Virus record (IMG/VR): IMGVR_UViG_2693429621_000002
Location: 1 to 8,160 of that record
Length of the DNA stretch: 8,160 bases
Strand: one strand, 5' to 3'
Source of the DNA: a virus
Lineage: Duplodnaviria; Heunggongvirae; Uroviricota; Caudoviricetes
Shown: positions 1 through 8,160 of the stretch, in pieces
Layout: each line of letters opens with the position of its first letter
Position numbering within the stretch: position 1 is the stretch's first letter
Position numbers and translations under genes: made by a program
The notes under the pieces: model-generated
What the model was told of the DNA's origin: nothing
Seen by the model: only the letters and a program-made list of their open reading frames with translations
Database searches by the model: none

Positions 1-5
1 AACAA

Positions 6-236
6 ATGGTAGTGTCCGCTATTGCCAGTACACCTCATCCATCACCGAAAAAAATTGGCTTTTACACCATTGGCGATAAAAGCATTTACCTGTATGACCT
101 ACGCCGCATGGATGAAATCATGGAGGCTCTTGATAATCGTTCGTCGATGGATTGGTGTGTTGCTGTTCATGATATGAATGCAGGGTTTGATGAAAAGATT
201 TTGTTCCCCTCATCAGTTGAAAGCACTGCGGGTTAA
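6..236 (+). CDS. hypothetical prophage protein (76 aa from first ATG; may extend 5' beyond the window)
   Basis: Open frame from ATG at 6 to TAA at 234-236; the codon before the ATG in this frame is not a stop, so the true start may lie upstream of the window. No recognisable motif. Confidence 0.4.
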   Translation: MVVSAIASTPHPSPKKIGFYTIGDKSIYLYDLRRMDEIMEALDNRSSMDWCVAVHDMNAGFDEKILFPSSVESTAG

Positions 237-246
237 GGAGTAACAC

Positions 247-414
247 ATGACCACTATTACCAAAGAACGTATTGAATTGTTCATTAAAAACCCGCTTGAA
301 AACGGGCTTACCCGTGGTGAACAAATGGAACTGGCACGGATTGCGCTGGCATCGCTGGAAGCAGAGCCGGTTGTGTTCTGGTTTGAAAAATATCAAGAAG
401 GGGCTACGGCATGA
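247..414 (+). CDS. hypothetical small protein (55 aa), N-terminal paralog of the next gene
   Basis: Strong SD AAGGAG 7 nt upstream of ATG at 247; stop TGA overlaps the next start (ATGA at 411-414). Below the 60-aa cutoff of the ORF track. Shares MTT(I/F)T(K/R)E... and ...(A/V)SL(E/A)AEP motifs with the 411-755 product. Confidence 0.55.
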
Positions 415-755
415 CGACTTTTACCAGAGAGCAGTTAATAGCTCACGCAGAGGAGACTATTGAAGCACAGAGACTGTGCATACCGGGCACAATCGACCAT
501 GACATCATCCGCACATATAAGATGGATATTGCTGTTCTGGAAATCGCACTGGTATCGCTGGCAGCAGAGCCAGCCGGTAAATTGCATGAATACAAACCAG
601 TGGGATATCAGCGTCTGGTCGATGAGTTAACCATGCTGGTAAAGCAGTTAACCTGGCAACTGAGGAAAGCGAAGCCAGACTGCAAATTACCGGATAAGGC
701 GATGAGTTATCTGGAGCGGAACGGACTGATAAGCGTGGAGGATATTTTACGATGA
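411..755 (+). CDS. hypothetical protein (114 aa), paralog of the 247-414 product
   Basis: ORF in track; start overlaps upstream stop and its own stop overlaps the next start (ATGA at 752-755), indicating translational coupling. Internal similarity to the preceding small protein. Confidence 0.6.
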
Positions 756-835
756 CCTGGCCTGAAGCATTAACAACGGTAGGAATTGCGATGGCGGTGG
801 CGCTGGTGGTGTATTCGATTTGCCGCTGGGGATAA
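752..835 (+). CDS. putative 27-aa hydrophobic membrane micro-protein ([27 protein letters not shown])
   Basis: ATG overlaps the stop of the upstream gene (ATGA); single predicted transmembrane helix; ends TAA 833-835. Too short for the ORF track. Could be a chance ORF. Confidence 0.35.
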
Positions 836-841
836 AAACGG

Positions 842-870
842 TTTGCGGGAAAAGGAGAGTTAAGTAGAAT
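842..870 (+). promoter_or_regulatory. candidate sigma70 promoter for hok mRNA (-35 TTTGCG, 17-bp spacer, -10 TAGAAT)
   Basis: Hexamers read directly; the predicted transcript start (about 877) precedes a GCTTGAGGCT motif that I recall from the 5' end of plasmid R1 hok mRNA. Confidence 0.3.
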
Positions 871-1046
871 TGCAGCGGGTGCTTGAGGCTATCTGTCTCA
901 GGCATGAACACCAAAAGGCAGATAGAGAAAAGCCCCAGTTAACATTACGCGTCCGGCAAGACGCTTAACATTAATCTGAGGCTCAATCTATGAACGGCAA
1001 ATCTAGGTTAGCCTCTTACGTGCCGAAAGGCAAGGAGAAGCAGGCT

Positions 1047-1202
1047 ATGAAGCAGCAAAAGGCGATGTTAATCGCCCTGATCGTCATCTGTTTAACCGTC
1101 ATAGTGACGGCACTGGTAACGAGGAAAGACCTCTGCGAGGTACGAATTCGAACCGGCCAGACGGAGGTCGCTGTCTTCACAGCTTACGAACCTGAGGAGT
1201 AA
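1047..1202 (+). CDS. hokD: Hok/Gef-family type I toxin, HokD/RelF-like (51 aa)
   Basis: Translation MKQQKAMLIALIVICLTVIVTALVTRKDLCEVRIRTGQTEVAVFTAYEPEE matches my recollection of E. coli HokD (RelF). The ORF track shows an in-frame 70-aa extension from ATG 990, which may be a mok-like upstream frame or an ORF-finder artefact. Confidence 0.85.
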   Translation: MKQQKAMLIALIVICLTVIVTALVTRKDLCEVRIRTGQTEVAVFTAYEPEE

Positions 1203-1271
1203 GAGACCAGGCGGGGGAGAAATCCCTCGCCACCTCTGATGGGTCAGGCATCCTCAATGCACCCACACTTA

Positions 1272-1300
1272 ACCCGCTTCGGCGGGTTTTTGTTTTTATT
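1272..1300 (+). terminator. rho-independent terminator ending the hok transcript
   Basis: Hairpin ACCCGC-TTCG-GCGGGT followed by TTTTTGTTTTTATTTT. Confidence 0.6.
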
Positions 1301-1310
1301 TTCAACGCGT

Positions 1311-1340
1311 TTGAAGTTTTAGATGGTGCCGGAATAGAAT
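1311..1340 (+). promoter_or_regulatory. candidate sigma70 promoter (-35 TTGAAG, 18-bp spacer, -10 TAGAAT)
   Basis: Hexamers read directly, about 85 nt upstream of the 1423 start codon. Confidence 0.3.
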
Positions 1341-1422
1341 CAAAAATACTTAAGTAGCGCGCAGGGAGAAGAGGGATGGACCCCGAACAGGGGAGTGCTA
1401 TTTATCTGGAAGGATTCTGTTG

Positions 1423-1704
1423 ATGAAAATCGAAGAATTACGTGAAATTTTTAGTGAAGATGGCCTCTATACTGTGCGCGTTGAGAATGGCGCTATTGTC
1501 AGCCACTGCCTTCCAGACTACACAATTCTGATAATTCAGCCGTCTTTGCCAGCAGGCACGGGCGGCGCTCTCACGCATTTAAATCTGATTGGTACCAGCA
1601 TCCCCCATGCACTGAAGAACAGGCCGAATGGCTCATTCAGTGTTACCGCAGGCGCGGATGCGAGGTTAAAAAAGCCCTTAGCCTCGACTACCGTCACTGG
1701 ATAA
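1423..1704 (+). CDS. hypothetical prophage protein (93 aa) in the position occupied by rem in Qin-like prophages
   Basis: ATG at 1423 preceded by GGAAGGA; the ORF track starts 3 nt earlier at TTG. Lies between hok and the DUF968 gene as in Qin. Identity with Rem not verified. Confidence 0.5.
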   Translation: MKIEELREIFSEDGLYTVRVENGAIVSHCLPDYTILIIQPSLPAGTGGALTHLNLIGTSIPHALKNRPNGSFSVTAGADARLKKPLASTTVTG

Positions 1705-1779
1705 TCTCCGTCAGGCTCCCTTACTCCGAACGGCCAACGCGTCCGTCCCGCACATTCCAGCAACGGATCTGGAGGTAAT

Positions 1780-2838
1780 GTGCGGGTATTACTTCGACCT
1801 GTTCTGGTACCGGAACTCGGTCTGGTTATCGTTAAGCCAGGCCGTGAATCAATGTCAGCATTCCATAACGGCAGAATACTGGTGGAGCCGGAACCAAAAA
1901 GCATGCGTAATCTGCCGTCCGGGGTCGTTCCTGCCGCTCGCCAGCCGCTGGTGGAAGACAAAACATTGCTGCCGTTTTTCAGTAACGCACGGGTGATTCG
2001 TGCTGCTGGTGGTGCTGGTGCATTGTCTGACTGGCTGTTGCGCCATATTAAATCCTGCCAGTGGCCACACGGCGATTATCATCACAGCGAAACCGTCATT
2101 CACCGTTATGGTACCGGCGCAATGGTGTTGTGCTGGCACTGCGACAACCAGCTGCGTGACCAGACATCCGAATCACTCGAGCAACTTGCTCATCAAAACC
2201 TGTCAGCATGGATGATTGACGTCATCGGTCACGCAATAAGCGGTACGCAGGAGCGTGAATTATCTCTGGCTGAATTATCCTGGTGGGCGGTCCGCAATCA
2301 GGTGGCGGACGCGCTACCGGAAGCGGTATTACGTCGTTCGCTGGGGTTGCGTGCGGAAAAAATTCGCTCTGTGTACAGTGAAAGCGACATCATACCGGGA
2401 GAGCAGACAGCCACCAGCATACTGAAGCAGCGCACAAAAAATATTGCGTTACTGCCTCACGTCCACCAGCAACAGAACCCACCACAGGAAAAGACGGTGG
2501 TCAGCATTGCCGTTGATCCGGAGTCACCGGCTCAGTATCTCCAGCGCCAGAAATCACAACGGGAAGAGATGCCTGTATACACGCGCTGGGTAAAAACGCA
2601 GAAATGCATGACGTGTGGCAATCAGGCAGATGATCCGCATCACATCATTGGTCATGGACTGGGAGGGATGGGAACAAAGGCTGATGATTTGTTTGTTATT
2701 CCGTTATGCCGTAAATGCCGTAACGAACTACATGCCGGAGTAAAAGATTTTGAAGAGAAACACGGCAGTCAGCTGTTGTTGCTGATTCGTTTTTTAATGC
2801 ACGCGAGAAATTCGGGTGTTCTGAAGTGGAAAGCATAA
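1780..2838 (+). CDS. DUF968 / YdfU-like prophage protein with C-terminal Cys/His cluster (352 aa)
   Basis: Long ORF from GTG 1780 (SD GGAGG at 1771-1775); the true start may be internal. C-terminus has CMTCGN...DPHHIIGH...PLCRKCRNELH, an HNH/zinc-finger-like arrangement. Stop TAA abuts the rusA start. Confidence 0.65.
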   Translation: MRVLLRPVLVPELGLVIVKPGRESMSAFHNGRILVEPEPKSMRNLPSGVVPAARQPLVEDKTLLPFFSNARVIRAAGGAGALSDWLLRHIKSCQWPHGDYHHSETVIHRYGTGAMVLCWHCDNQLRDQTSESLEQLAHQNLSAWMIDVIGHAISGTQERELSLAELSWWAVRNQVADALPEAVLRRSLGLRAEKIRSVYSESDIIPGEQTATSILKQRTKNIALLPHVHQQQNPPQEKTVVSIAVDPESPAQYLQRQKSQREEMPVYTRWVKTQKCMTCGNQADDPHHIIGHGLGGMGTKADDLFVIPLCRKCRNELHAGVKDFEEKHGSQLLLLIRFLMHARNSGVLKWKA

Positions 2839-3219
2839 ATGACCGAGCGCATAGAATTTGTTTTACCTTACCCGCCGACGGTGAACACTTACTGGCGTCG
2901 TCGTGGCAGCACATATTTTGTATCAAAAGCCGGGGAGCGTTATCGCCGGGCAGTGGCGCTTATTGTTCGCCAGCAGCGGCTGAAATTAAGCCTGTCCGGA
3001 AGGTTGGCAATAAAAATTATTGCAGAACCACCGGATAAGCGCCGCCGTGACCTGGACAATATTCTGAAAGCGCCGCTGGATGCGCTGACGCATGCGGGGT
3101 TGCTAATGGACGATGAGCAGTTTGATGAAATCAATATCGTTCGTGGTCAGCCAGTATCTGGTGGACGTCTGGGGGTGAAGATTTACCCCATAATGCATGA
3201 AGAGCAGGTCAAAAAATGA
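2839..3219 (+). CDS. rusA: RusA-family Holliday junction resolvase (126 aa)
   Basis: Conserved RusA blocks LPYPPTVNTYWRRRG, DKRRRDLDNILKAPLDALTHAGL and GGRLGVKI resemble E. coli RusA; SD GGAAAG upstream; stop overlaps the next start (ATGA 3216-3219). Confidence 0.85.
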   Translation: MTERIEFVLPYPPTVNTYWRRRGSTYFVSKAGERYRRAVALIVRQQRLKLSLSGRLAIKIIAEPPDKRRRDLDNILKAPLDALTHAGLLMDDEQFDEINIVRGQPVSGGRLGVKIYPIMHEEQVKK

Positions 3220-4043
3220 AACTGGAAGATTTACCGAAATACTACTCCCCAAAATCCCCCGGCCTGACTGATGCATCGGCCTCAACGTCGAAAGATGCGC
3301 TGAGTATCACTGATGTGATGGCCGCGCAGGGCATGACACAGAATCGGGCTGAGATGGGGGTTTCTGCGTTCCTTGGGAAAATGGGCATTAGTATGAATGA
3401 CAGAGAGCGGGCAACAGAATTGCTGACAGAATATGCACTCAGTCGGTGTGATCGCGTGGCGGCGTTAAGAAAACTCCCGGCAGAAATAAAACCGGCAGTG
3501 ATGCGTATTATGGCTTCGTATGCGTTTGAAGATTATGCCCGTAGCGCGGCGAGCAAAAAACAGTGCCCCTGCTGTCACGGAAAAAAATTTATTGAAAGCG
3601 AGGTTTTTACAAACAAGATCCAGTATCCGGATGGTAAGCCGCCGGTATGGGCAAAGTGTACGAAAGGTGTGTATCCGTCTTACTGGGAAGAATGGAAAAA
3701 AGTCAGGGAGGTGGTAAAAGTTGCCTGTCCGGAGTGTGGCGGAAAGGGTGAGGTTTCCACCGCCTGTAAGGATTGCCGTGGGCGTGGTGTCGCCATTCAT
3801 CGTGAAGAGTCGGTAAAACGTGGTATGCCTGTTATCAGAGACTGCCAGCGTTGTGGTGGTCGTGGCTATGAAAGACTACCATCAACGGAGGCATTTAATG
3901 CTATATGCGAGGTGACAAACCAGATAACACGCGCGTCATGGGAAAAAACAGTTAAGAAATTCTATGATGCGCTGGTGACTCGGTTTGATATTGAAGAAGC
4001 ATGGGCTGAGCGGCAGTTAAAAAAGGTAACTAGGTNAGGTTGA
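3216..4043 (+). CDS. Q-type late antiterminator, QuuQ-like, with zinc-finger motifs (about 274 aa)
   Basis: Repeated CxxC motifs (CPCCHGKKF, CPECGGKG...CKDCRGRG, CQRCGGRG); lies immediately upstream of a promoter plus terminator pair typical of PR'/tR'. The 3' end contains an N at 4036; the duplicate copy shows the true C-terminus ...KKVTR. Confidence 0.7.
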   Translation: MKLEDLPKYYSPKSPGLTDASASTSKDALSITDVMAAQGMTQNRAEMGVSAFLGKMGISMNDRERATELLTEYALSRCDRVAALRKLPAEIKPAVMRIMASYAFEDYARSAASKKQCPCCHGKKFIESEVFTNKIQYPDGKPPVWAKCTKGVYPSYWEEWKKVREVVKVACPECGGKGEVSTACKDCRGRGVAIHREESVKRGMPVIRDCQRCGGRGYERLPSTEAFNAICEVTNQITRASWEKTVKKFYDALVTRFDIEEAWAERQLKKVTRXG

Positions 4044-4128
4044 TTTTTCCGGAATCTGTGGTAAATTCGTCATAACTATGGGCGTTTTATGCCTGACGTT
4101 AGAAGAGTTTCTACAACCCGCCGCCGAG
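3629..4128. repeat. copy 1 of duplicated segment (Q 3' end, PR'-like promoter, start of tR' hairpin) ending at the scaffold gap
   Basis: Matches 4150-4651 except for three substitutions (3962 C/T, 3980 T/C, 4076 T/G) and a small indel around the N at 4036. A copy of the promoter sits at about 4040-4067. Confidence 0.9.
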
Positions 4129-4149
4129 NNNNNNNNNNNNNNNNNNNNN
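4129..4149. other. scaffold gap (21 N)
   Basis: Run of N characters read directly. Confidence 0.97.
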
Positions 4150-4558
4150 GGATGGTAAGCCGCCGGTATGGGCAAAGTGTACGAAAGGTGTGTATCCGTC
4201 TTACTGGGAAGAATGGAAAAAAGTCAGGGAGGTGGTAAAAGTTGCCTGTCCGGAGTGTGGCGGAAAGGGTGAGGTTTCCACCGCCTGTAAGGATTGCCGT
4301 GGGCGTGGTGTCGCCATTCATCGTGAAGAGTCGGTAAAACGTGGTATGCCTGTTATCAGAGACTGCCAGCGTTGTGGTGGTCGTGGCTATGAAAGACTAC
4401 CATCAACGGAGGCATTTAATGCTATATGCGAGGTGACAAACCAGATAACACGCGCGTCATGGGAAAAAACAGTTAAGAAATTTTATGATGCGCTGGTGAC
4501 CCGGTTTGATATTGAAGAAGCATGGGCTGAGCGGCAGTTAAAAAAGGTAACTAGGTAA
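4150..4558 (+). pseudogene. duplicated 3' portion of the Q antiterminator ORF (partial, begins at gap edge); probably contig overlap rather than a separate gene
   Basis: In-frame continuation of Q codons ending ...QLKKVTR-TAA at 4556-4558. The ORF track reports only the part from the internal ATG at 4190. Confidence 0.6.
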
Positions 4559-4563
4559 CAAGG

Positions 4564-4591
4564 TTGATTTTTCCGGAATCTGTGGTAAATT
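4564..4591 (+). promoter_or_regulatory. PR'-like late promoter (-35 TTGATT, 16-bp spacer, -10 TAAATT), presumed Q-utilisation region
   Basis: Hexamers read directly, immediately 3' of the Q gene, with a terminator about 60 nt downstream; this is the lambdoid PR'/qut/tR' arrangement. Confidence 0.55.
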
Positions 4592-4638
4592 CGTCATAAC
4601 GATGGGCGTTTTATGCCTGACGTTAGAAGAGTTTCTAC

Positions 4639-4663
4639 AACCCGCCGCCGAGCGGGTTTTTTA
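4639..4663 (+). terminator. tR'-like rho-independent terminator
   Basis: Hairpin AACCCGC-CGCCGA-GCGGGTT followed by TTTTTTAT. Confidence 0.65.
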
Positions 4664-4782
4664 TGACTGAAATCGCGTCAGTACAGTAAACGCGCTGGTG
4701 GCGGTGAATACCTGTCTTTCAGCTTGCTGGCTTTTTCGACAAGAGTTATTGGTGTGTCACGTTAACCGGAAAAGGAAAAGAC

Positions 4783-4980
4783 ATGCTAAAACAGCAGGAT
4801 ATGACAGAAACCGCCAGAGTGGTGTTTAATGAATTAAGCGTTACCGAACCGGCGACAGTCGGGGAGATAGCGCAGAATACTTACCTTTCACGCGAACGCT
4901 GCCAGTTAATACTGACCCAGCTGGTTATGGCGGGTCTGGCAGACTATCAGTTCGGTTGTTACAGACGCCTTCCGCAGTGA
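4783..4980 (+). CDS. small putative winged-helix/HTH DNA-binding protein (65 aa)
   Basis: SD AAAGGAAAAG 6 nt before ATG; the segment PATVGEIAQNTYLSRERCQLILTQLVMAGLA looks like a helix-turn-helix. An alternative start is ATG 4801. Confidence 0.5.
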   Translation: MLKQQDMTETARVVFNELSVTEPATVGEIAQNTYLSRERCQLILTQLVMAGLADYQFGCYRRLPQ

Positions 4981-4994
4981 AGGCTTTTTTATTT
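4967..4994 (+). terminator. rho-independent terminator overlapping the stop codon of the 4783-4980 ORF
   Basis: Hairpin GCCTTC-CGCAGT-GAAGGC followed by TTTTTTATTT. Confidence 0.5.
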
Positions 4995-5007
4995 GTGGTA
5001 AATGGGC

Positions 5008-5038
5008 GGCTGGTGGGTGTTAGGGGCACCCACCAGCC
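5008..5038 (+). promoter_or_regulatory. perfect 12-bp inverted repeat hairpin (GGCTGGTGGGTG-ttagggg-CACCCACCAGCC) upstream of the methyltransferase gene
   Basis: Read directly; not followed by a T-run. A near-palindrome CTGCTTTGCGCAAAAGCAG lies at 5080-5098, about 35 nt before the methyltransferase start. Confidence 0.4.
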
Positions 5039-5130
5039 ATCTGCTCATGCGTTGGGTTCACAAGCAAACCTCAGGCCCACTGCTTTGCGCAAAAGCAGAA
5101 TGAGCCTATCAGAGACAGGCTTAATGATCC

Positions 5131-6189
5131 ATGCTTAATACTGTAAAAATATCCAGTTGTGAGTTAATCAACGCCGACTGCCTGGAATTTATCCGGTCGT
5201 TACCCGAAAATTCTGTTGACCTGATAGTCACGGACCCGCCGTACTTTAAAGTGAAGCCTGAGGGCTGGGATAACCAGTGGAAGGGCGACGATGATTACCT
5301 GAAGTGGCTGGACCAGTGTCTGGCGCAGTTCTGGCGGGTGCTGAAACCTGCCGGAAGTCTTTACCTGTTCTGTGGTCATCGCCTGGCATCTGATATCGAA
5401 ATCATGATGCGTGAACGCTTCAGTGTGCTGAACCATATTATCTGGGCGAAGCCGTCCGGACGCTGGAACGGATGCAACAAGGAAAGCCTGCGGGCGTATT
5501 TCCCCGCCACAGAGCGCATTCTGTTCGCGGAACATTATCAGGGGCCGTATCGTCCGAAAGATGCCGGGTATGCGGCGAAGGGCAGTGCACTGAAACAGCA
5601 TGTGATGGCCCCGCTGATTTCTTACTTTCGTGATGCGCGAGCTGCCCTGGGGATAACGGCAAAACAGATTGCAGATGCCACAGGAAAGAAAAACATGGTG
5701 TCGCACTGGTTCAGTGCCGGTCAGTGGCAGTTGCCGAATGAAAGCGATTATCTGAAATTACAGGCGCTGTTTGCCCGGGTGGCAGAAGAGAAGCATCGGC
5801 GTGGTGAACTGGAAAAGCTCCACCACCAGCTGGTGGATACGTATACCTCACTGAACCGGCAGTATGCGGAGCTGCTGAGTGAATATAAACATCTGCGGCG
5901 GTATTTTGGCGTGACGGTGCAGGTGCCGTATACCGATGTGTGGACGCATAAACCGGTGCAGTTCTATCCCGGGAAACATCCGTGCGAAAAACCGGCAGAA
6001 ATGCTGCAGCAGATAATCAGCGCTAGCAGTCGTCCGGGTGACCTGATTGCAGATTTTTTCATGGGGTTGGGTTCGACAGTGAAAGCGGCACTGGCGCTCG
6101 GGCGTCGTGCAATTGGCGTTGAGCTGGAGACTGAACGTTTTGAGCAGACGGTTCGGGAAGTACAGGATTTAGTCAGCCAGAACGGATGA
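5131..6189 (+). CDS. beta-class DNA amino-methyltransferase, probably N6-adenine, orphan (352 aa)
   Basis: N-terminal motif IV LIVTDPPYF and C-terminal motif I DFFMGLGST. This order (IV before I) is the beta-class arrangement, and DPPY favours N6-adenine. No restriction endonuclease ORF is adjacent. Confidence 0.85.
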   Translation: MLNTVKISSCELINADCLEFIRSLPENSVDLIVTDPPYFKVKPEGWDNQWKGDDDYLKWLDQCLAQFWRVLKPAGSLYLFCGHRLASDIEIMMRERFSVLNHIIWAKPSGRWNGCNKESLRAYFPATERILFAEHYQGPYRPKDAGYAAKGSALKQHVMAPLISYFRDARAALGITAKQIADATGKKNMVSHWFSAGQWQLPNESDYLKLQALFARVAEEKHRRGELEKLHHQLVDTYTSLNRQYAELLSEYKHLRRYFGVTVQVPYTDVWTHKPVQFYPGKHPCEKPAEMLQQIISASSRPGDLIADFFMGLGSTVKAALALGRRAIGVELETERFEQTVREVQDLVSQNG

Positions 6190-6229
6190 TATTGAAGAAT
6201 TAATTACGCGTCGTTATTATGCGGCTCCC

Positions 6230-6305
6230 GGCCCTTTAGCTCAGTGGTGAGAGCGAGCGACTCATAATCGCCAGGTCGCTGGTTCAAATCCAGCAAGGGC
6301 CACCA
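6230..6305 (+). tRNA. ileZ: tRNA-Ile2 (anticodon CAU, lysidine type; ileX/ileZ-like), 76 nt with encoded CCA
   Basis: Manual cloverleaf: acceptor GGCCCTT/AAGGGCC, D-arm GCTC-AGTGGTGA-GAGC, anticodon loop CTCATAA, T-loop TTCAAAT. Closely resembles my recollection of E. coli ileX. Confidence 0.85.
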
Positions 6306-6312
6306 TCACATA

Positions 6313-6389
6313 CCGCCATTAGCTCATCAGGAAAGAGCGCCAGCCTTCGAAGCTGGCTGCGCGGGGTTCAAGTCCCCGATGGCGGTCCA
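6313..6389 (+). tRNA. argN: tRNA-Arg (anticodon UCG), 77 nt with encoded CCA
   Basis: Acceptor CCGCCAT/ATGGCGG, anticodon stem CCAGC/GCTGG, loop CTTCGAA, T-arm CGGGG-TTCAAGT-CCCCG, discriminator T, CCA. Confidence 0.8.
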
Positions 6390-6402
6390 TTATCTGCATC
6401 AT

Positions 6403-6479
6403 GCGTTGTTAGCTCAGCCGGACAGAGCAATTGCCTTCTAAGCAATCGGTCACTGGTTCGAATCCAGTACAGCGCGCCA
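6403..6479 (+). tRNA. argO: tRNA-Arg (anticodon UCU), 77 nt with encoded CCA
   Basis: Acceptor GCGTTGT/ACAGCGC (one G-U pair), anticodon stem ATTGC/GCAAT, loop CTTCTAA, T-loop TTCGAAT, discriminator G, CCA. Confidence 0.85.
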
Positions 6480-6616
6480 TATTCATTCTTCCAGATTCCT
6501 TCCGGCAGAGCCTTATACTGAAATATACCTGGCTCAGGATATTGTTGAAAATATTTTATGTTTGTCAAAAATAAAAGTTCTGTTAAGTATTGATTGAGTG
6601 TTTGTTATACGGTCTA

Positions 6617-6943
6617 ATGGTTTTTTCAGCATTAAATATTTATCATTCATATGGTGTGGGTAGAGTGAATATTGATGAGGCGTCGGGGTGTTTCATCCTT
6701 AGGCAGCGTATTGATATAGTCAATGCAGCACGAGCAAAGGCCTTCAGCCGTTTGACAGTTTTGTTCTGTACTCCTGATCGTCTTTCGGGAAGAGACGTTA
6801 TTATTCTGAATAGTGATGCTATACAGAGGGTTTGCGATGAGTTCATGGTTGCTAATTCAGAATTATTTGCTCTTGTTCAGGAGTACAACAGAATAGCCAG
6901 GACCTGTGGTATGGATGAACTTCGGATTACTCATCTGGGGTAG
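6617..6943 (+). CDS. hypothetical cargo protein (108 aa from first ATG; ORF track extends to TTG at 6590)
   Basis: Open frame of more than 100 codons in an AT-rich region; no clear SD. Arg codons are 6/11 AGA/AGG plus one CGA, and Ile includes 3 ATA, matching the adjacent tRNAs. No recognisable domain. Confidence 0.4.
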   Translation: MVFSALNIYHSYGVGRVNIDEASGCFILRQRIDIVNAARAKAFSRLTVLFCTPDRLSGRDVIILNSDAIQRVCDEFMVANSELFALVQEYNRIARTCGMDELRITHLG

Positions 6944-7023
6944 ATACATATCTGGATTATCACCTGTTACGGTAAAAAGTGATTGCTTACTGTTTTTGTG
7001 AATGGCATTGCAGCAGCCGGATA

Positions 7024-7110
7024 ATGTCAGTGCTGGCTGACGGTGTGCTGGTGGCGGGTGTGGTGGTTGTTGCTTTCCCGTTGCTGAAAAAGAAAACGCC
7101 AGACTGTTAG
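7024..7110 (+). CDS. possible 28-aa hydrophobic micro-protein (MSVLADGVLVAGVVVVAFPLLKKKTPDC)
   Basis: ATG with weak SD (GGA); one hydrophobic helix followed by KKK. Speculative; may be non-coding. Confidence 0.2.
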   Translation: MSVLADGVLVAGVVVVAFPLLKKKTPDC

Positions 7111-7335
7111 CCGGGTATCAGTTAGCGGGAGAAATTTTTAAATACTTCACAATTCAGGCGGTTGACTGTTGTCTGGTTTGCGGGGAGTTTGTTAAAAGAA
7201 ACTGGCATGGTGAATCCCCCTGTGCGGAGGGGCAATCAGCGAGTAGGTATATGGGATAATCGCGGATTCAGGTGCTGGTACTGAATTCACCGGGAGGCAC
7301 CCGGCACCATGCAATGGCACATAGCGCCACTCTCC

Positions 7336-7370
7336 AGCCCCTCTCCGGAGGGGCTGTTTATATTGATTTT
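7336..7370 (+). terminator. strong rho-independent terminator, + orientation
   Basis: Perfect 8-bp stem AGCCCCTC-tccg-GAGGGGCT followed by GTTTATATTGATTTT. Confidence 0.6.
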
Positions 7371-7387
7371 GTCAGATGTGAGTAAAC

Positions 7388-7421
7388 TCCTTATGGACTT
7401 TGTTGTTTTAGTCCATAAGGA
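7388..7421. promoter_or_regulatory. perfect 12-bp inverted repeat (TCCTTATGGACT-ttgttgtttt-AGTCCATAAGGA) overlapping the stop codon of the minus-strand ORF
   Basis: Read directly; on the minus-strand mRNA the last 10 codons and the stop lie inside this hairpin. Confidence 0.4.
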
Positions 7422-7726
7422 CATATTTGCAGAGTGCAACGGTTATTAAAGCATTCATTCAATACGTTATCTGTATTTGTAGGGCATTCCTGGCTATTTT
7501 TGATTGAATTCCAGAATGTTTTATTGAATGGTACTACGTTGTAAATGGTTACAGGTAGCACTTTGTTATTGAGCATGATGCCTGTGTGAGTCAGTGTAAA
7601 TATACTTTCAGGAGGTAAGAAAGCATCCGATTGATACCAGATTATTAATTTTATTTTACTCCATATGACTGAAAAAGATATTCCGCATGATGGCTGGATA
7701 ACTGTATCAATCACAATCCACTTCAT
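7391..7726 (-). CDS. hypothetical cargo protein (111 aa), antisense to the phage late operon, Cys-containing C-terminus
   Basis: ATG at 7726 with SD AAGGA 7 nt upstream; 6 of 13 Ile codons are the rare ATA (read by the adjacent tRNA-Ile2). C-terminal [25 protein letters not shown] has four Cys. No recognisable domain. Confidence 0.6.
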
Positions 7727-7986
7727 TTAGTTTCCTTGTTTATGCCTTGCTGGTGATGTTCTGAAAAGTATAAATGATATTTTTGAATGTAAACCATAGA
7801 GCAGAATTATTTTTCTGATGTTGTTTATTGTTTATTTAAATGCAGGGTGGTTTATATCTCGTCTTGTAGTTTATCCATGCATATCTGCTTGATAATCAGG
7901 TTTTTATTTAAGGTATGGTTTTGTGTTTTTTCTGTATTACATGTCAGGTATTTTAAAGAATTATTTTTCAGATGGTGGAAAGAACC

Positions 7987-8160
7987 ATGGCATTTAAACA
8001 CTATGATGTTGTCAGGGCGGCGCCGCCGTCAGATCTTGCGGAAAAGCTGACACATAAACTGAAAGAGGGCTGGCAGCCGTTTGGTAGTCCGGTGGCCATA
8101 ACCCCTTATACCCTGAGGTGTACTGGCAATAGCGGACACTACCATTTGTTCTTTTTTTAA
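7987..8160 (+). CDS. small prophage protein (57 aa from ATG 7987; 62 aa from ATG 7972), tentatively DUF1737-like
   Basis: SD-like GGTGGAAAG before ATG 7987; stop TAA at 8158-8160 directly after a T7 homopolymer at the window edge. Similarity to the N-terminal domain of Stx-phage NanS-p-type esterases is from memory and unverified. Confidence 0.45.
   Translation: MAFKHYDVVRAAPPSDLAEKLTHKLKEGWQPFGSPVAITPYTLRCTGNSGHYHLFFF

What the first reader, a model, noticed from the sequence alone, without database searches (positions are those of the whole stretch)
3629..4651. Scaffold gap flanked by a 500-bp near-identical duplication; the window may be a chimera
The 21-N run is flanked by two copies of the Q 3' end, promoter and terminator. 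They differ at three positions, two of which are synonymous third-codon-position changes in Q. That pattern looks like real divergence between paralogous prophage copies rather than random sequencing error. The assembler probably broke in a repeat shared by two or more lambdoid prophages, so linkage of the left half (cassette through Q) to the right half (HTH protein, methyltransferase, tRNAs, cargo) is not proven.
Basis: seen in the sequence. Interest (0 to 1): 0.5.

Follow-up and report, generated by a model that had tools for sequence, protein, structure and literature searches.

The report
False duplication at a scaffold gap
The 500-base "duplication" around the run of Ns is an assembly artefact: a stretch shared by two defective prophages of a Shigella sonnei-type genome was written at the ends of two contigs, and the scaffold mixes sequence from both prophages.

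Summary
Copy 1 is 3629-4128, the 21-N gap is 4129-4149 and copy 2 is 4150-4652. They differ at 3 substitutions, two of them synonymous in Q. A fourth difference was missed: the single N at 4036 sits on an 8-bp indel.

This is not a biological duplication. Finished Shigella sonnei chromosomes carry two IS600-riddled lambdoid remnants about 0.67 Mb apart.
- PB (10/10 loci): IS600-hok-DUF968-RusA-Q(273 aa)-HTH-methyltransferase-tRNAs-short cargo-IS600.
- PA (8/8 loci): RusA-Q(284 aa)-tRNAs-DUF3927-IraM-DUF1737'-IS600.

PA and PB share a 525-nt segment. The duplicated block covers 503 nt of it, stopping 10 and 12 nt short of its two edges. Copy 2 equals PB exactly. Copy 1's last 167 nt carry PA's allele at all 3 substitution sites, and a PA/PB hybrid with the N at the indel.

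Collapsed on copy 2, the window matches finished PB with 0 mismatches from 3629 to 6471, so the link across the gap is the normal one. From 6472 to 8160 the window is 100% PA, including PA's IS600 junction. The switch lies in a 69-nt tRNA-Arg stretch identical in both.

So the scaffold is a PB/PA mosaic. Interest is low: an ordinary false duplication.

The parts
1..37 (+). Last 37 nt of IS600 (right end). The scaffold starts inside the IS copy that bounds prophage remnant PB on the left.
   Evidence: It matches many sites per genome in complete E. coli genomes, up to 43 places. It is identical to the 3' end of an annotated IS600. The same junction occurs in finished S. sonnei PB loci.
38..3618 (+). 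PB-specific left part: small ORFs, hok-family toxin (990-1202), DUF968 (1780-2838), rusA (2839-3219) and the 5' part of Q (from 3216).
   Evidence: Identical to finished PB loci apart from 4 sites at 3146-3203. All other PA/PB-discriminating sites between 2839 and 3618 carry PB alleles. Pfam hits.
3146..3203 (+). Patch of 4 PA-type alleles (3146G, 3186C, 3197A, 3203A) inside otherwise PB-type rusA.
   Evidence: Three-way alignment. All finished PB loci carry the other alleles. The same patch occurs in one sibling draft, L156, which is 100% identical over 1511-3652.
3629..4128 (+). Copy 1 of the repeat, at the 3' end of contig 1: Q codons 139 onward, the Q stop region, the pR'-like promoter and the 5' arm and loop of tR'. 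The last 167 nt (3962-4128) carry the PA haplotype.
   Evidence: define the copy. 3962C, 3980T and 4077T equal PA in 7 of 8 finished PA loci.
4036..4036 (.). Single N on an 8-bp copy-number polymorphism (AACAAGGT, seen in 0, 1 or 2 copies). Copy 1 has 'N AGGT', which is neither the PA allele (0 copies) nor the PB allele (1 copy).
   Evidence: The same hybrid with an N appears in an independent sibling draft, L048.
4129..4149 (.). Scaffold gap of 21 N between contig 1 and contig 2.
4150..4652 (+). Copy 2 of the repeat, at the 5' end of contig 2, carrying the PB haplotype (T, C, AACAAGGT, G). This is the authentic continuation of the Q gene.
   Evidence: 0 mismatches to finished PB loci over 4150-6471. 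The same haplotype occurs in 10 of 10 PB loci.
4564..4591 (+). Probable late promoter pR' (TTGATT, 16-nt spacer, TAAATT).
   Evidence: Read directly from the sequence. It falls below the consensus threshold of the scan. The assignment rests on resemblance to lambda pR' recalled from memory, so it is an inference.
4639..4664 (+). Intrinsic terminator tR' (7-bp G+C-rich stem, 6-nt loop, T-run). It is complete only here.
4665..6402 (+). PB-specific module: 65-aa HTH-like protein (4783-4980), N6/N4 DNA methyltransferase (5131-6189), tRNA with CAU anticodon (6230-6305) and tRNA-Arg(tcg) (6313-6389).
   Evidence: 0 mismatches to finished PB loci. PA lacks the HTH and methyltransferase genes and has variant tRNA sequence at 6195-6402. 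tRNAs, Pfam.
6403..6471 (+). 69 nt of tRNA-Arg(tct) that are identical in PA and PB. This is where the window switches from PB to PA.
   Evidence: Differences from PA end at 6402. Differences from PB begin at 6472.
6472..8113 (+). Cargo segment belonging to PA in finished genomes: unassigned 117-aa ORF, DUF3927 (6979-7110), IraM/PmrD-like protein (7391-7726, minus strand) and a truncated DUF1737 gene (from 7972).
   Evidence: 0 mismatches to PA loci L132 and L137 over 6403-8160. All 10 finished PB loci continue differently after the tRNA. Gene context.
8114..8160 (-). Last 47 nt of IS600 (right end, reverse complement). This is the IS copy that truncates DUF1737 in PA.
   Evidence: It includes a 37-nt perfect inverted repeat with positions 1-37. 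IS600 end sequence. The identical junction occurs in finished PA loci.

Best explanation
The duplication is a false duplication made by assembly and scaffolding, not a feature of the genome.

The source is a Shigella sonnei-type chromosome with two defective lambdoid prophage remnants, PB and PA. They share a 525-nt stretch: the 3' part of the Q antiterminator gene, the late promoter and tR'. The first 343 nt of that stretch are identical. The rest differs by 3 SNPs and an 8-bp indel.

Short-read assembly could not thread this repeat. Contig 1 came in from PB's left flank, ran through the repeat and picked up PA's variants in its last 167 nt. At the indel it produced a PA/PB blend with an N, the mark of a mixed read pile. 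Contig 2 starts 10 nt inside the repeat and carries PB's variants. The scaffolder then linked the two contigs but did not merge the imperfect overlap, and wrote a gap of N instead. The repeat therefore appears twice.

The true local structure is most likely a single Q gene followed by pR'-tR', the HTH gene, the methyltransferase gene and the tRNAs.

Further right, contig 2 leaves PB at a 69-nt tRNA-Arg stretch that is identical in both prophages, and continues in PA's cargo up to PA's IS600 junction. The scaffold as a whole is therefore a PB/PA mosaic.

Shown here: the allele-by-allele origin of every segment, the coincidence of contig ends with repeat edges, and the single-copy structure in finished genomes. 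Inferred: the assembler behaviour, because no reads are available.
For: - Finished chromosomes, including CP000038.1 (Ss046) and HE616528.1 (53G; names confirmed in PMC5447701), hold PB and PA as separate loci. In CP104423.1 they lie at about 1.86 and 2.53 Mb.
- All 10 PB loci read: window-type left flank, haplotype T/C/AACAAGGT/G, HTH-methyltransferase, then a different short cargo. All 8 PA loci read: divergent left flank, short indel allele with T at the third site (7 of 8 with C/T at the first two, 53G with C/C), tRNAs directly, then the window's cargo.
- The three-way alignment shows copy 1 equals PA at 3962, 3980 and 4077 and is a hybrid at the indel. Copy 2 equals PB at every discriminating site.
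- The window matches PB with 0 mismatches over 4150-6471. It matches PA with 0 mismatches over 6403-8160, including the IS600 junction.
- Contig ends sit at graph forks. The last PA/PB difference is at 3618. Sibling draft L119 has a contig 100% identical to 4150-7381 that starts exactly at the equivalent of 3619. Another sibling contig ends exactly at 3961, one base before the first SNP.
- Sibling drafts show every possible threading and several mixed haplotypes: L014, L084, L048, L059, L065, L042. Finished genomes show only the two canonical structures.
- The Q 3'-end motif occurs only once in every natural contig. Among the 119 IMG/VR loci only L119 has two matches, and they lie on contigs separated by an N. 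Each of the 18 finished loci has one.
- 1044 complete E. coli genomes hold the collapsed arrangement in one colinear place.
- An assembly gap between two copies is a recognised hallmark of false duplications (PMC9516828).
Against: - No reads, depth or pair information are available for this assembly, so the real structure of this particular strain is not observed.
- Two N-free sibling contigs (L014, L084) join the window's left flank to the PA tail, as contig 1 does. That threading could therefore be real in some strains.
- The joint from the PB tRNA into PA's cargo is shared with sibling L119. In more distant E. coli prophages, methyltransferase-tRNAs-IraM-DUF1737 is a natural order (L001, L148, L152-154). 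A real gene conversion is therefore not excluded.
- The contig ends lie 10-12 nt inside the repeat rather than k-1 nt beyond it, which no simple assembler model predicts.
Confidence: 0.85

Rival explanations
1. Real recombinant strain, so the join at the gap is a true misjoin. In this strain the window's left flank would really continue into the PA-type tail and straight into the tRNAs and IraM cargo, as in sibling contig L014. The HTH-methyltransferase module would sit behind the other, divergent Q gene. Contig 1 would then be correct, and contig 2 would belong to a different prophage.
For: L014 (6236 nt, no N) and L084 show exactly this: IS600 end, left flank (99.9% identical), PA haplotype, tRNAs, then in L014 the cargo and IS600 end. 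L065 shows the divergent Q joined to the PB haplotype and methyltransferase.
Against: All 18 finished loci have the canonical linkage. PA and PB lie in the same orientation in CP104423.1, so a reciprocal crossover would delete or duplicate about 0.67 Mb rather than swap arms. The hybrid N at the indel shows that contig 1's tail was called from mixed reads. Closely related drafts show mutually inconsistent threadings, as expected from random mis-threading. Contig 2 would still need a second mis-join at 6403-6471.
Confidence: 0.08
2. Real gene conversion between the two prophages. Short tracts of PA sequence would have been copied into PB in this lineage: 3146-3203, and the cargo from the tRNA to the IS600 copy. 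The mosaic would then be partly biological, even though the duplication itself is an artefact.
For: The 3146-3203 patch recurs in sibling draft L156 at 100% identity. The PB-tRNA to PA-cargo joint recurs in L119. Both loci have homology on each side of the cargo: the tRNA on the left and IS600(-) on the right.
Against: None of the 10 finished PB loci has either tract. L119 also contains a contig with the canonical PB cargo after the same tRNA. Recurrence within drafts of similar type could equally come from the same assembly behaviour.
Confidence: 0.1
3. True tandem duplication of the Q 3' end, pR' and tR' in this strain, interrupted only by an unsequenced gap.
For: Only the raw appearance of two direct copies 521 nt apart.
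Against: No tandem copy occurs in 119 IMG/VR loci, 18 finished S. sonnei loci or the colinear places in 1044 E. coli genomes. The copies end within 10-12 nt of the edges of an inter-prophage repeat. Copy 1's variants are those of a locus about 0.67 Mb away. The joint between the copies is made of N.
Confidence: 0.02
4. Plain overlap of two contigs from one locus, with the differences being random sequencing or consensus errors at a low-quality contig end.
For: All differences lie in the last 167 nt of contig 1, and one of them is an N.
Against: The three substitutions hit exactly the three SNP sites that separate PA from PB in the shared segment, and each shows PA's base. The N sits on the only indel. 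By my own arithmetic the chance of this is about 1e-9: positions 3/500 x 2/499 x 1/498, times (1/3)^3 for the bases.
Confidence: 0.01

Closest known systems
False duplications flanking assembly gaps (uncollapsed overlap of contig ends), as catalogued for vertebrate assemblies by Ko et al. 2022 (PMC9516828)
   Same: There are two near-identical copies on one scaffold separated by an assembly gap. The copies differ by real variants of two source sequences. Collapsing them restores the structure seen in finished assemblies.
   Different: In the vertebrate cases the two sources are usually haplotypes of a diploid. Here they are two paralogous prophage remnants of a haploid bacterium. The depth and read-pair criteria used in that paper could not be applied here.
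Late-gene regulatory module of lambdoid phages (Q antiterminator, pR', tR', then tRNA genes and cargo, as in Stx and related prophages)
   Same: The duplicated DNA is the 3' part of a Q gene (Pfam Antiterm, E = 1.6e-53), a TTGATT-16-TAAATT promoter-like site and an intrinsic terminator. These are followed by a DNA methyltransferase gene and three tRNA genes.
   Different: Both copies in S. sonnei are IS600-truncated remnants, not inducible phages. No function of Q, pR' or tR' was tested here.
IS-rich, repeat-fragmented Shigella draft assemblies
   Same: Both scaffold ends stop inside IS600. Sibling drafts break at the same repeat edges.
   Different: Nothing differs in kind. This is a typical case.

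Membership tests
False duplication at an assembly gap (artefact) | The two copies lie on the same scaffold and are separated by a gap of N. | tested here: met
   Copy 1 at 3629-4128, 21 N, copy 2 at 4150-4652. The criterion is stated in PMC9516828.
False duplication at an assembly gap (artefact) | Collapsing the copies reproduces the single-copy structure of finished genomes. | tested here: met
   1-3628 plus 4150-6471 is colinear with 10 of 10 finished PB loci. There are 0 mismatches over 4150-6471 and 4 over 1-3628. The spacing from the Q stop to the HTH start is 225 nt in both.
False duplication at an assembly gap (artefact) | The differences between copies are variants of two real source sequences, not errors. 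| tested here: met
   Copy 1 carries PA's allele and copy 2 PB's at all three SNP sites. At the indel site copy 2 is PB and copy 1 is a PA/PB hybrid.
False duplication at an assembly gap (artefact) | Read depth and read pairs are inconsistent with two copies at this place. | not testable with these tools
   No reads are available for this assembly.
Genuine tandem duplication | A sequenced novel joint exists between the end of copy 1 and the start of copy 2. | tested here: not met
   The joint is entirely N. Copy 1 even stops inside the tR' hairpin.
Genuine tandem duplication | It is present in related finished genomes or independent assemblies. | tested here: not met
   The Q 3'-end motif occurs once per contig in 119 IMG/VR loci and 18 finished loci. 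The two matches in L119 lie on different contigs.
Lambdoid Q antiterminator gene (Pfam PF03589) | Significant match to the Antiterm profile above the curated cut-off. | tested here: met
   E = 1.6e-53, 179 bits against a cut-off of 26.7, for the collapsed 273-aa Q.
Lambdoid Q antiterminator gene (Pfam PF03589) | Q-dependent read-through of tR' from pR'. | not testable with these tools
   Only sequence features are seen: a promoter-like hexamer pair and an intrinsic terminator.
IS600 (IS3 family) ends at the scaffold termini | Sequence identity to the terminal bases of an annotated IS600 copy, and multicopy distribution. | tested here: met
   Positions 1-37 and the reverse complement of 8114-8160 equal the 3' end of the IS600 annotated in NZ_CP014583.1. 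The sequence occurs in up to 43 places per genome.

The most novel reading that the evidence does not exclude
The mosaic is partly biological. In this S. sonnei lineage, short gene-conversion tracts would have moved PA sequence into PB: the rusA patch at 3146-3203, and the 1.6-kb IraM cargo between tRNA-Arg and IS600. That would document ongoing sequence exchange between two IS-bounded defective prophages about 0.67 Mb apart. The duplication around the gap would still be an artefact.
Probability: 0.1. Interest if true: 0.25.

Novelty: not a real feature. Interest (0 to 1): 0.08.

Why it matters
The main value is as a warning about annotation. Taken at face value the scaffold suggests four things that are not there:
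- a truncated extra Q gene;
- a second late promoter;
- a Q protein with an X in it;
- physical linkage of the methyltransferase module to the IraM/DUF3927 cargo.

In finished genomes the first three are absent, and the cargo belongs to a different prophage remnant about 0.67 Mb away.

Any gene-content, prophage-typing or synteny analysis that uses such drafts would miscount Q genes and could report prophage architectures that do not exist. The case also shows that contig ends and stray Ns can be explained allele by allele once finished relatives are available.

Tried and rejected
1. I looked for a near-identical complete E. coli genome to serve as the reference. The best match was only about 97% identical, because the source is Shigella-type and that collection holds E. 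coli only. It was still useful in showing that the collapsed gene order is common (1044 genomes).

2. I first read the 37-nt terminal inverted repeat as a possible adapter or composite-transposon end. It is the IS600 right end, and the two ends come from two different loci.

3. I considered random sequencing error for the three differences. This is rejected because every difference falls on a site that separates PA from PB.

4. I considered a real tandem duplication. This is rejected because none exists in any natural contig and the joint is made of N.

5. I tested whether the 3146-3203 patch is unique to this window, which would have pointed to pure artefact. It is not unique. One sibling draft, L156, has it, and the same 166-mer is natural in more distant E. 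coli prophages. Its status stays open.

6. The sigma-70 consensus scan found no promoter in the repeat. The pR' assignment therefore rests on reading the hexamers directly and on remembered similarity to lambda.

7. My first estimate of the shared segment (about 1046 nt) wrongly counted the duplication and the gap. The correct length is 525 nt in collapsed coordinates.

Full report
**The observation**

The window holds a 21-N run at 4129-4149 and a single N at 4036. The 500 nt before the run (3629-4128) and the 503 nt after it (4150-4652) are direct copies.

They differ at three substitutions: 3962 C/T, 3980 T/C and 4077 T/G. They also differ at the N, which stands where copy 2 reads AACA. The first two substitutions are third-codon positions of the ORF starting at 3216 and do not change the protein. 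The first 333 nt of the copies are identical.

Two details of the finding need correction. There is a fourth difference, at the N. And copy 1 stops in the loop of the terminator hairpin, so only copy 2 has a complete terminator, at 4639-4658 plus a T-run.

**What the DNA encodes**

Collapsed on copy 2, the ORF is a 273-aa Q antiterminator (Pfam Antiterm, E = 1.6e-53).

Upstream lie a Hok-family toxin, a DUF968 protein and RusA. Downstream lie a 65-aa HTH-like protein, an N6/N4 DNA methyltransferase and three tRNA genes. After those come DUF3927, an IraM/PmrD-like gene on the minus strand and a truncated DUF1737 gene.

Both ends of the window are the right end of IS600: 1-37 in forward orientation and 8114-8160 in reverse.

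**Where it comes from**

No complete E. coli genome is closer than about 97%. The exact DUF968 and IraM-like proteins, however, occur in many complete chromosomes. These include CP000038.1 and HE616528.1, which are Shigella sonnei Ss046 and 53G (PMC5447701).

These finished genomes carry two separate defective lambdoid remnants.
- PB (10 of 10 loci): IS600(+), small ORFs, Hok, DUF968, RusA, Q 273 aa, HTH, methyltransferase, tRNAs, a short cargo, IS600(-).
- PA (8 of 8 loci): RusA 124 aa, Q 284 aa, tRNAs directly after the terminator, DUF3927, IraM-like, truncated DUF1737, IS600(-).

In CP104423.1 the two lie at about 1.86 and 2.53 Mb in the same orientation.

**The repeat and its edges**

A three-way alignment of the window, PB and PA shows the two prophages differ at about 80 sites between 2839 and 3618. 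They are then identical from 3619 to 3961. Up to the point where they diverge completely (the equivalent of 4665), they differ only at 3962, 3980, 4077 and an 8-bp indel.

In collapsed coordinates the shared segment is 525 nt. The duplicated block covers 503 nt of it. Copy 2 begins 10 nt inside the left edge, and copy 1 ends 12 nt before the right edge.

Sibling draft assemblies in IMG/VR break at the same places. L119 has a contig 100% identical to 4150-7381 that begins exactly at the equivalent of 3619. L059 has a contig that ends exactly at 3961.

**Origin of the differences**

- Copy 2 has PB's allele at every discriminating site and matches finished PB loci with 0 mismatches from 4150 to 6471.
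- Copy 1 has PA's allele at all three SNP sites.
- The 8-bp unit AACAAGGT occurs in 0, 1 or 2 copies in natural prophages. PA has 0 and PB has 1. That shifts the Q stop and accounts for the 284-aa versus 273-aa proteins.
- Copy 1 has 'N AGGT' there, a blend of the two alleles. This is what a consensus over a mixed pile of PA and PB reads would give. An independent sibling draft, L048, has the same blend.

Random error is excluded, because the differences fall only on sites that separate PA from PB and each shows PA's base.

**Is the window a chimera?**

The link across the gap (left flank, one Q, HTH, methyltransferase, tRNAs) is the arrangement in all 10 finished PB loci. It is also found colinear in 1044 complete E. 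coli genomes. That link is therefore most probably true.

The window is still a mosaic:
- 1-3103 is PB.
- 3146-3203 has four PA alleles.
- 3260-3618 is PB.
- 3962-4128 is PA.
- 4150-6471 is PB.
- 6472-8160 is PA with 0 mismatches, including PA's IS600 junction.

The last switch falls in 69 nt of tRNA-Arg(tct) (6403-6471) that are identical in both loci. All 10 finished PB loci continue differently after that tRNA.

**Artefact or biology?**

Closely related drafts show every combination of left flank, haplotype and right flank, and several mixed haplotypes (L014, L084, L042, L048, L059, L065). The 18 finished loci show only the two canonical structures. That pattern fits random mis-threading of a repeat longer than the reads.

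A gap between the copies is a recognised mark of false duplication (PMC9516828).

I cannot exclude that the 3146-3203 patch (also present in sibling L156) or the joint from the PB tRNA to PA's cargo (also present in L119) reflects real gene conversion. No reads are available to settle it.

**Verdict**

The duplication is not a real genomic feature. It is a repeat shared by two prophage remnants, written at two contig ends and left unmerged by the scaffolder. The underlying biology, IS600-bounded defective lambdoid prophages in S. sonnei, is already represented in finished genomes.

Noticed in passing
window 1-37 and 8114-8160: The window begins and ends with the same end (right end) of IS600 in opposite orientations, which gives a 37-nt perfect terminal inverted repeat. 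In finished S. sonnei genomes the two junctions belong to two different loci about 0.67 Mb apart (PB on the left, PA on the right).
   Followed up: yes
window 6403-6471, with 6472-8160 downstream: A second non-canonical joint. The window follows PB up to tRNA-Arg(tct) and then continues, with 0 mismatches, in PA's cargo (DUF3927, IraM-like, truncated DUF1737, IS600). All 10 finished PB loci continue differently. Sibling draft L119 shares the joint.
   Followed up: yes
window 3146-3203: Four clustered PA-type alleles in the 3' end of an otherwise PB-type rusA. They are absent from all finished PB loci but present at 100% identity in one sibling draft (L156). The same 166-mer is natural in more distant E. 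coli prophages. This could be gene conversion or a recurrent consensus artefact.
   Followed up: partly
window 4553-4564 (copy 2) and 4032-4040 (copy 1): An 8-bp unit AACAAGGT between the Q stop and the -35 hexamer is present in 0, 1 or 2 copies among natural prophages. With 0 copies the TAA stop is lost and Q is 11 residues longer (284 vs 273 aa), reading through the promoter region.
   Followed up: partly
window 3629-3950: This 322-nt part of Q is nearly invariant (0-2 mismatches) in about 119 lambdoid contigs. The 400 nt to its left fall into two classes, with about 0-2 or about 35 mismatches. A sharp mosaic boundary therefore lies inside the Q gene at about 3619.
   Followed up: partly
window 5008-5040: Inverted repeat GGCTGGTGGGTG...CACCCACCAGCC between the HTH gene and the methyltransferase gene. 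Contigs of two sibling drafts (L119, L042) start at the equivalents of 5012 and 5034, so it appears to be another place where assemblies break.
   Followed up: no
window 1510/1511: Some relatives (L063, L128, L059, L156) have about 250 nt more at this point than the window, in the Rem-like region upstream of DUF968. Other finished S. sonnei genomes are colinear with the window.
   Followed up: no
window 6230-6305: ARAGORN calls this tRNA-Met (CAU). RefSeq annotates the homologous gene in E. coli strain 131 as tRNA-Ile. The trio resembles the tRNA cluster found downstream of Q in many lambdoid prophages.
   Followed up: no
window 6590-6943: A 117-aa ORF in the cargo segment with no Pfam match at E <= 0.01. 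It was not studied further.
   Followed up: no
L119 (IMG/VR UViG 2681813267), whole locus: This sibling scaffold chains three contigs from the two prophages and also contains the methyltransferase-tRNA stretch twice (equivalents of 4150-7381 and 5012-6492). It is another likely false duplication in the same region.
   Followed up: partly
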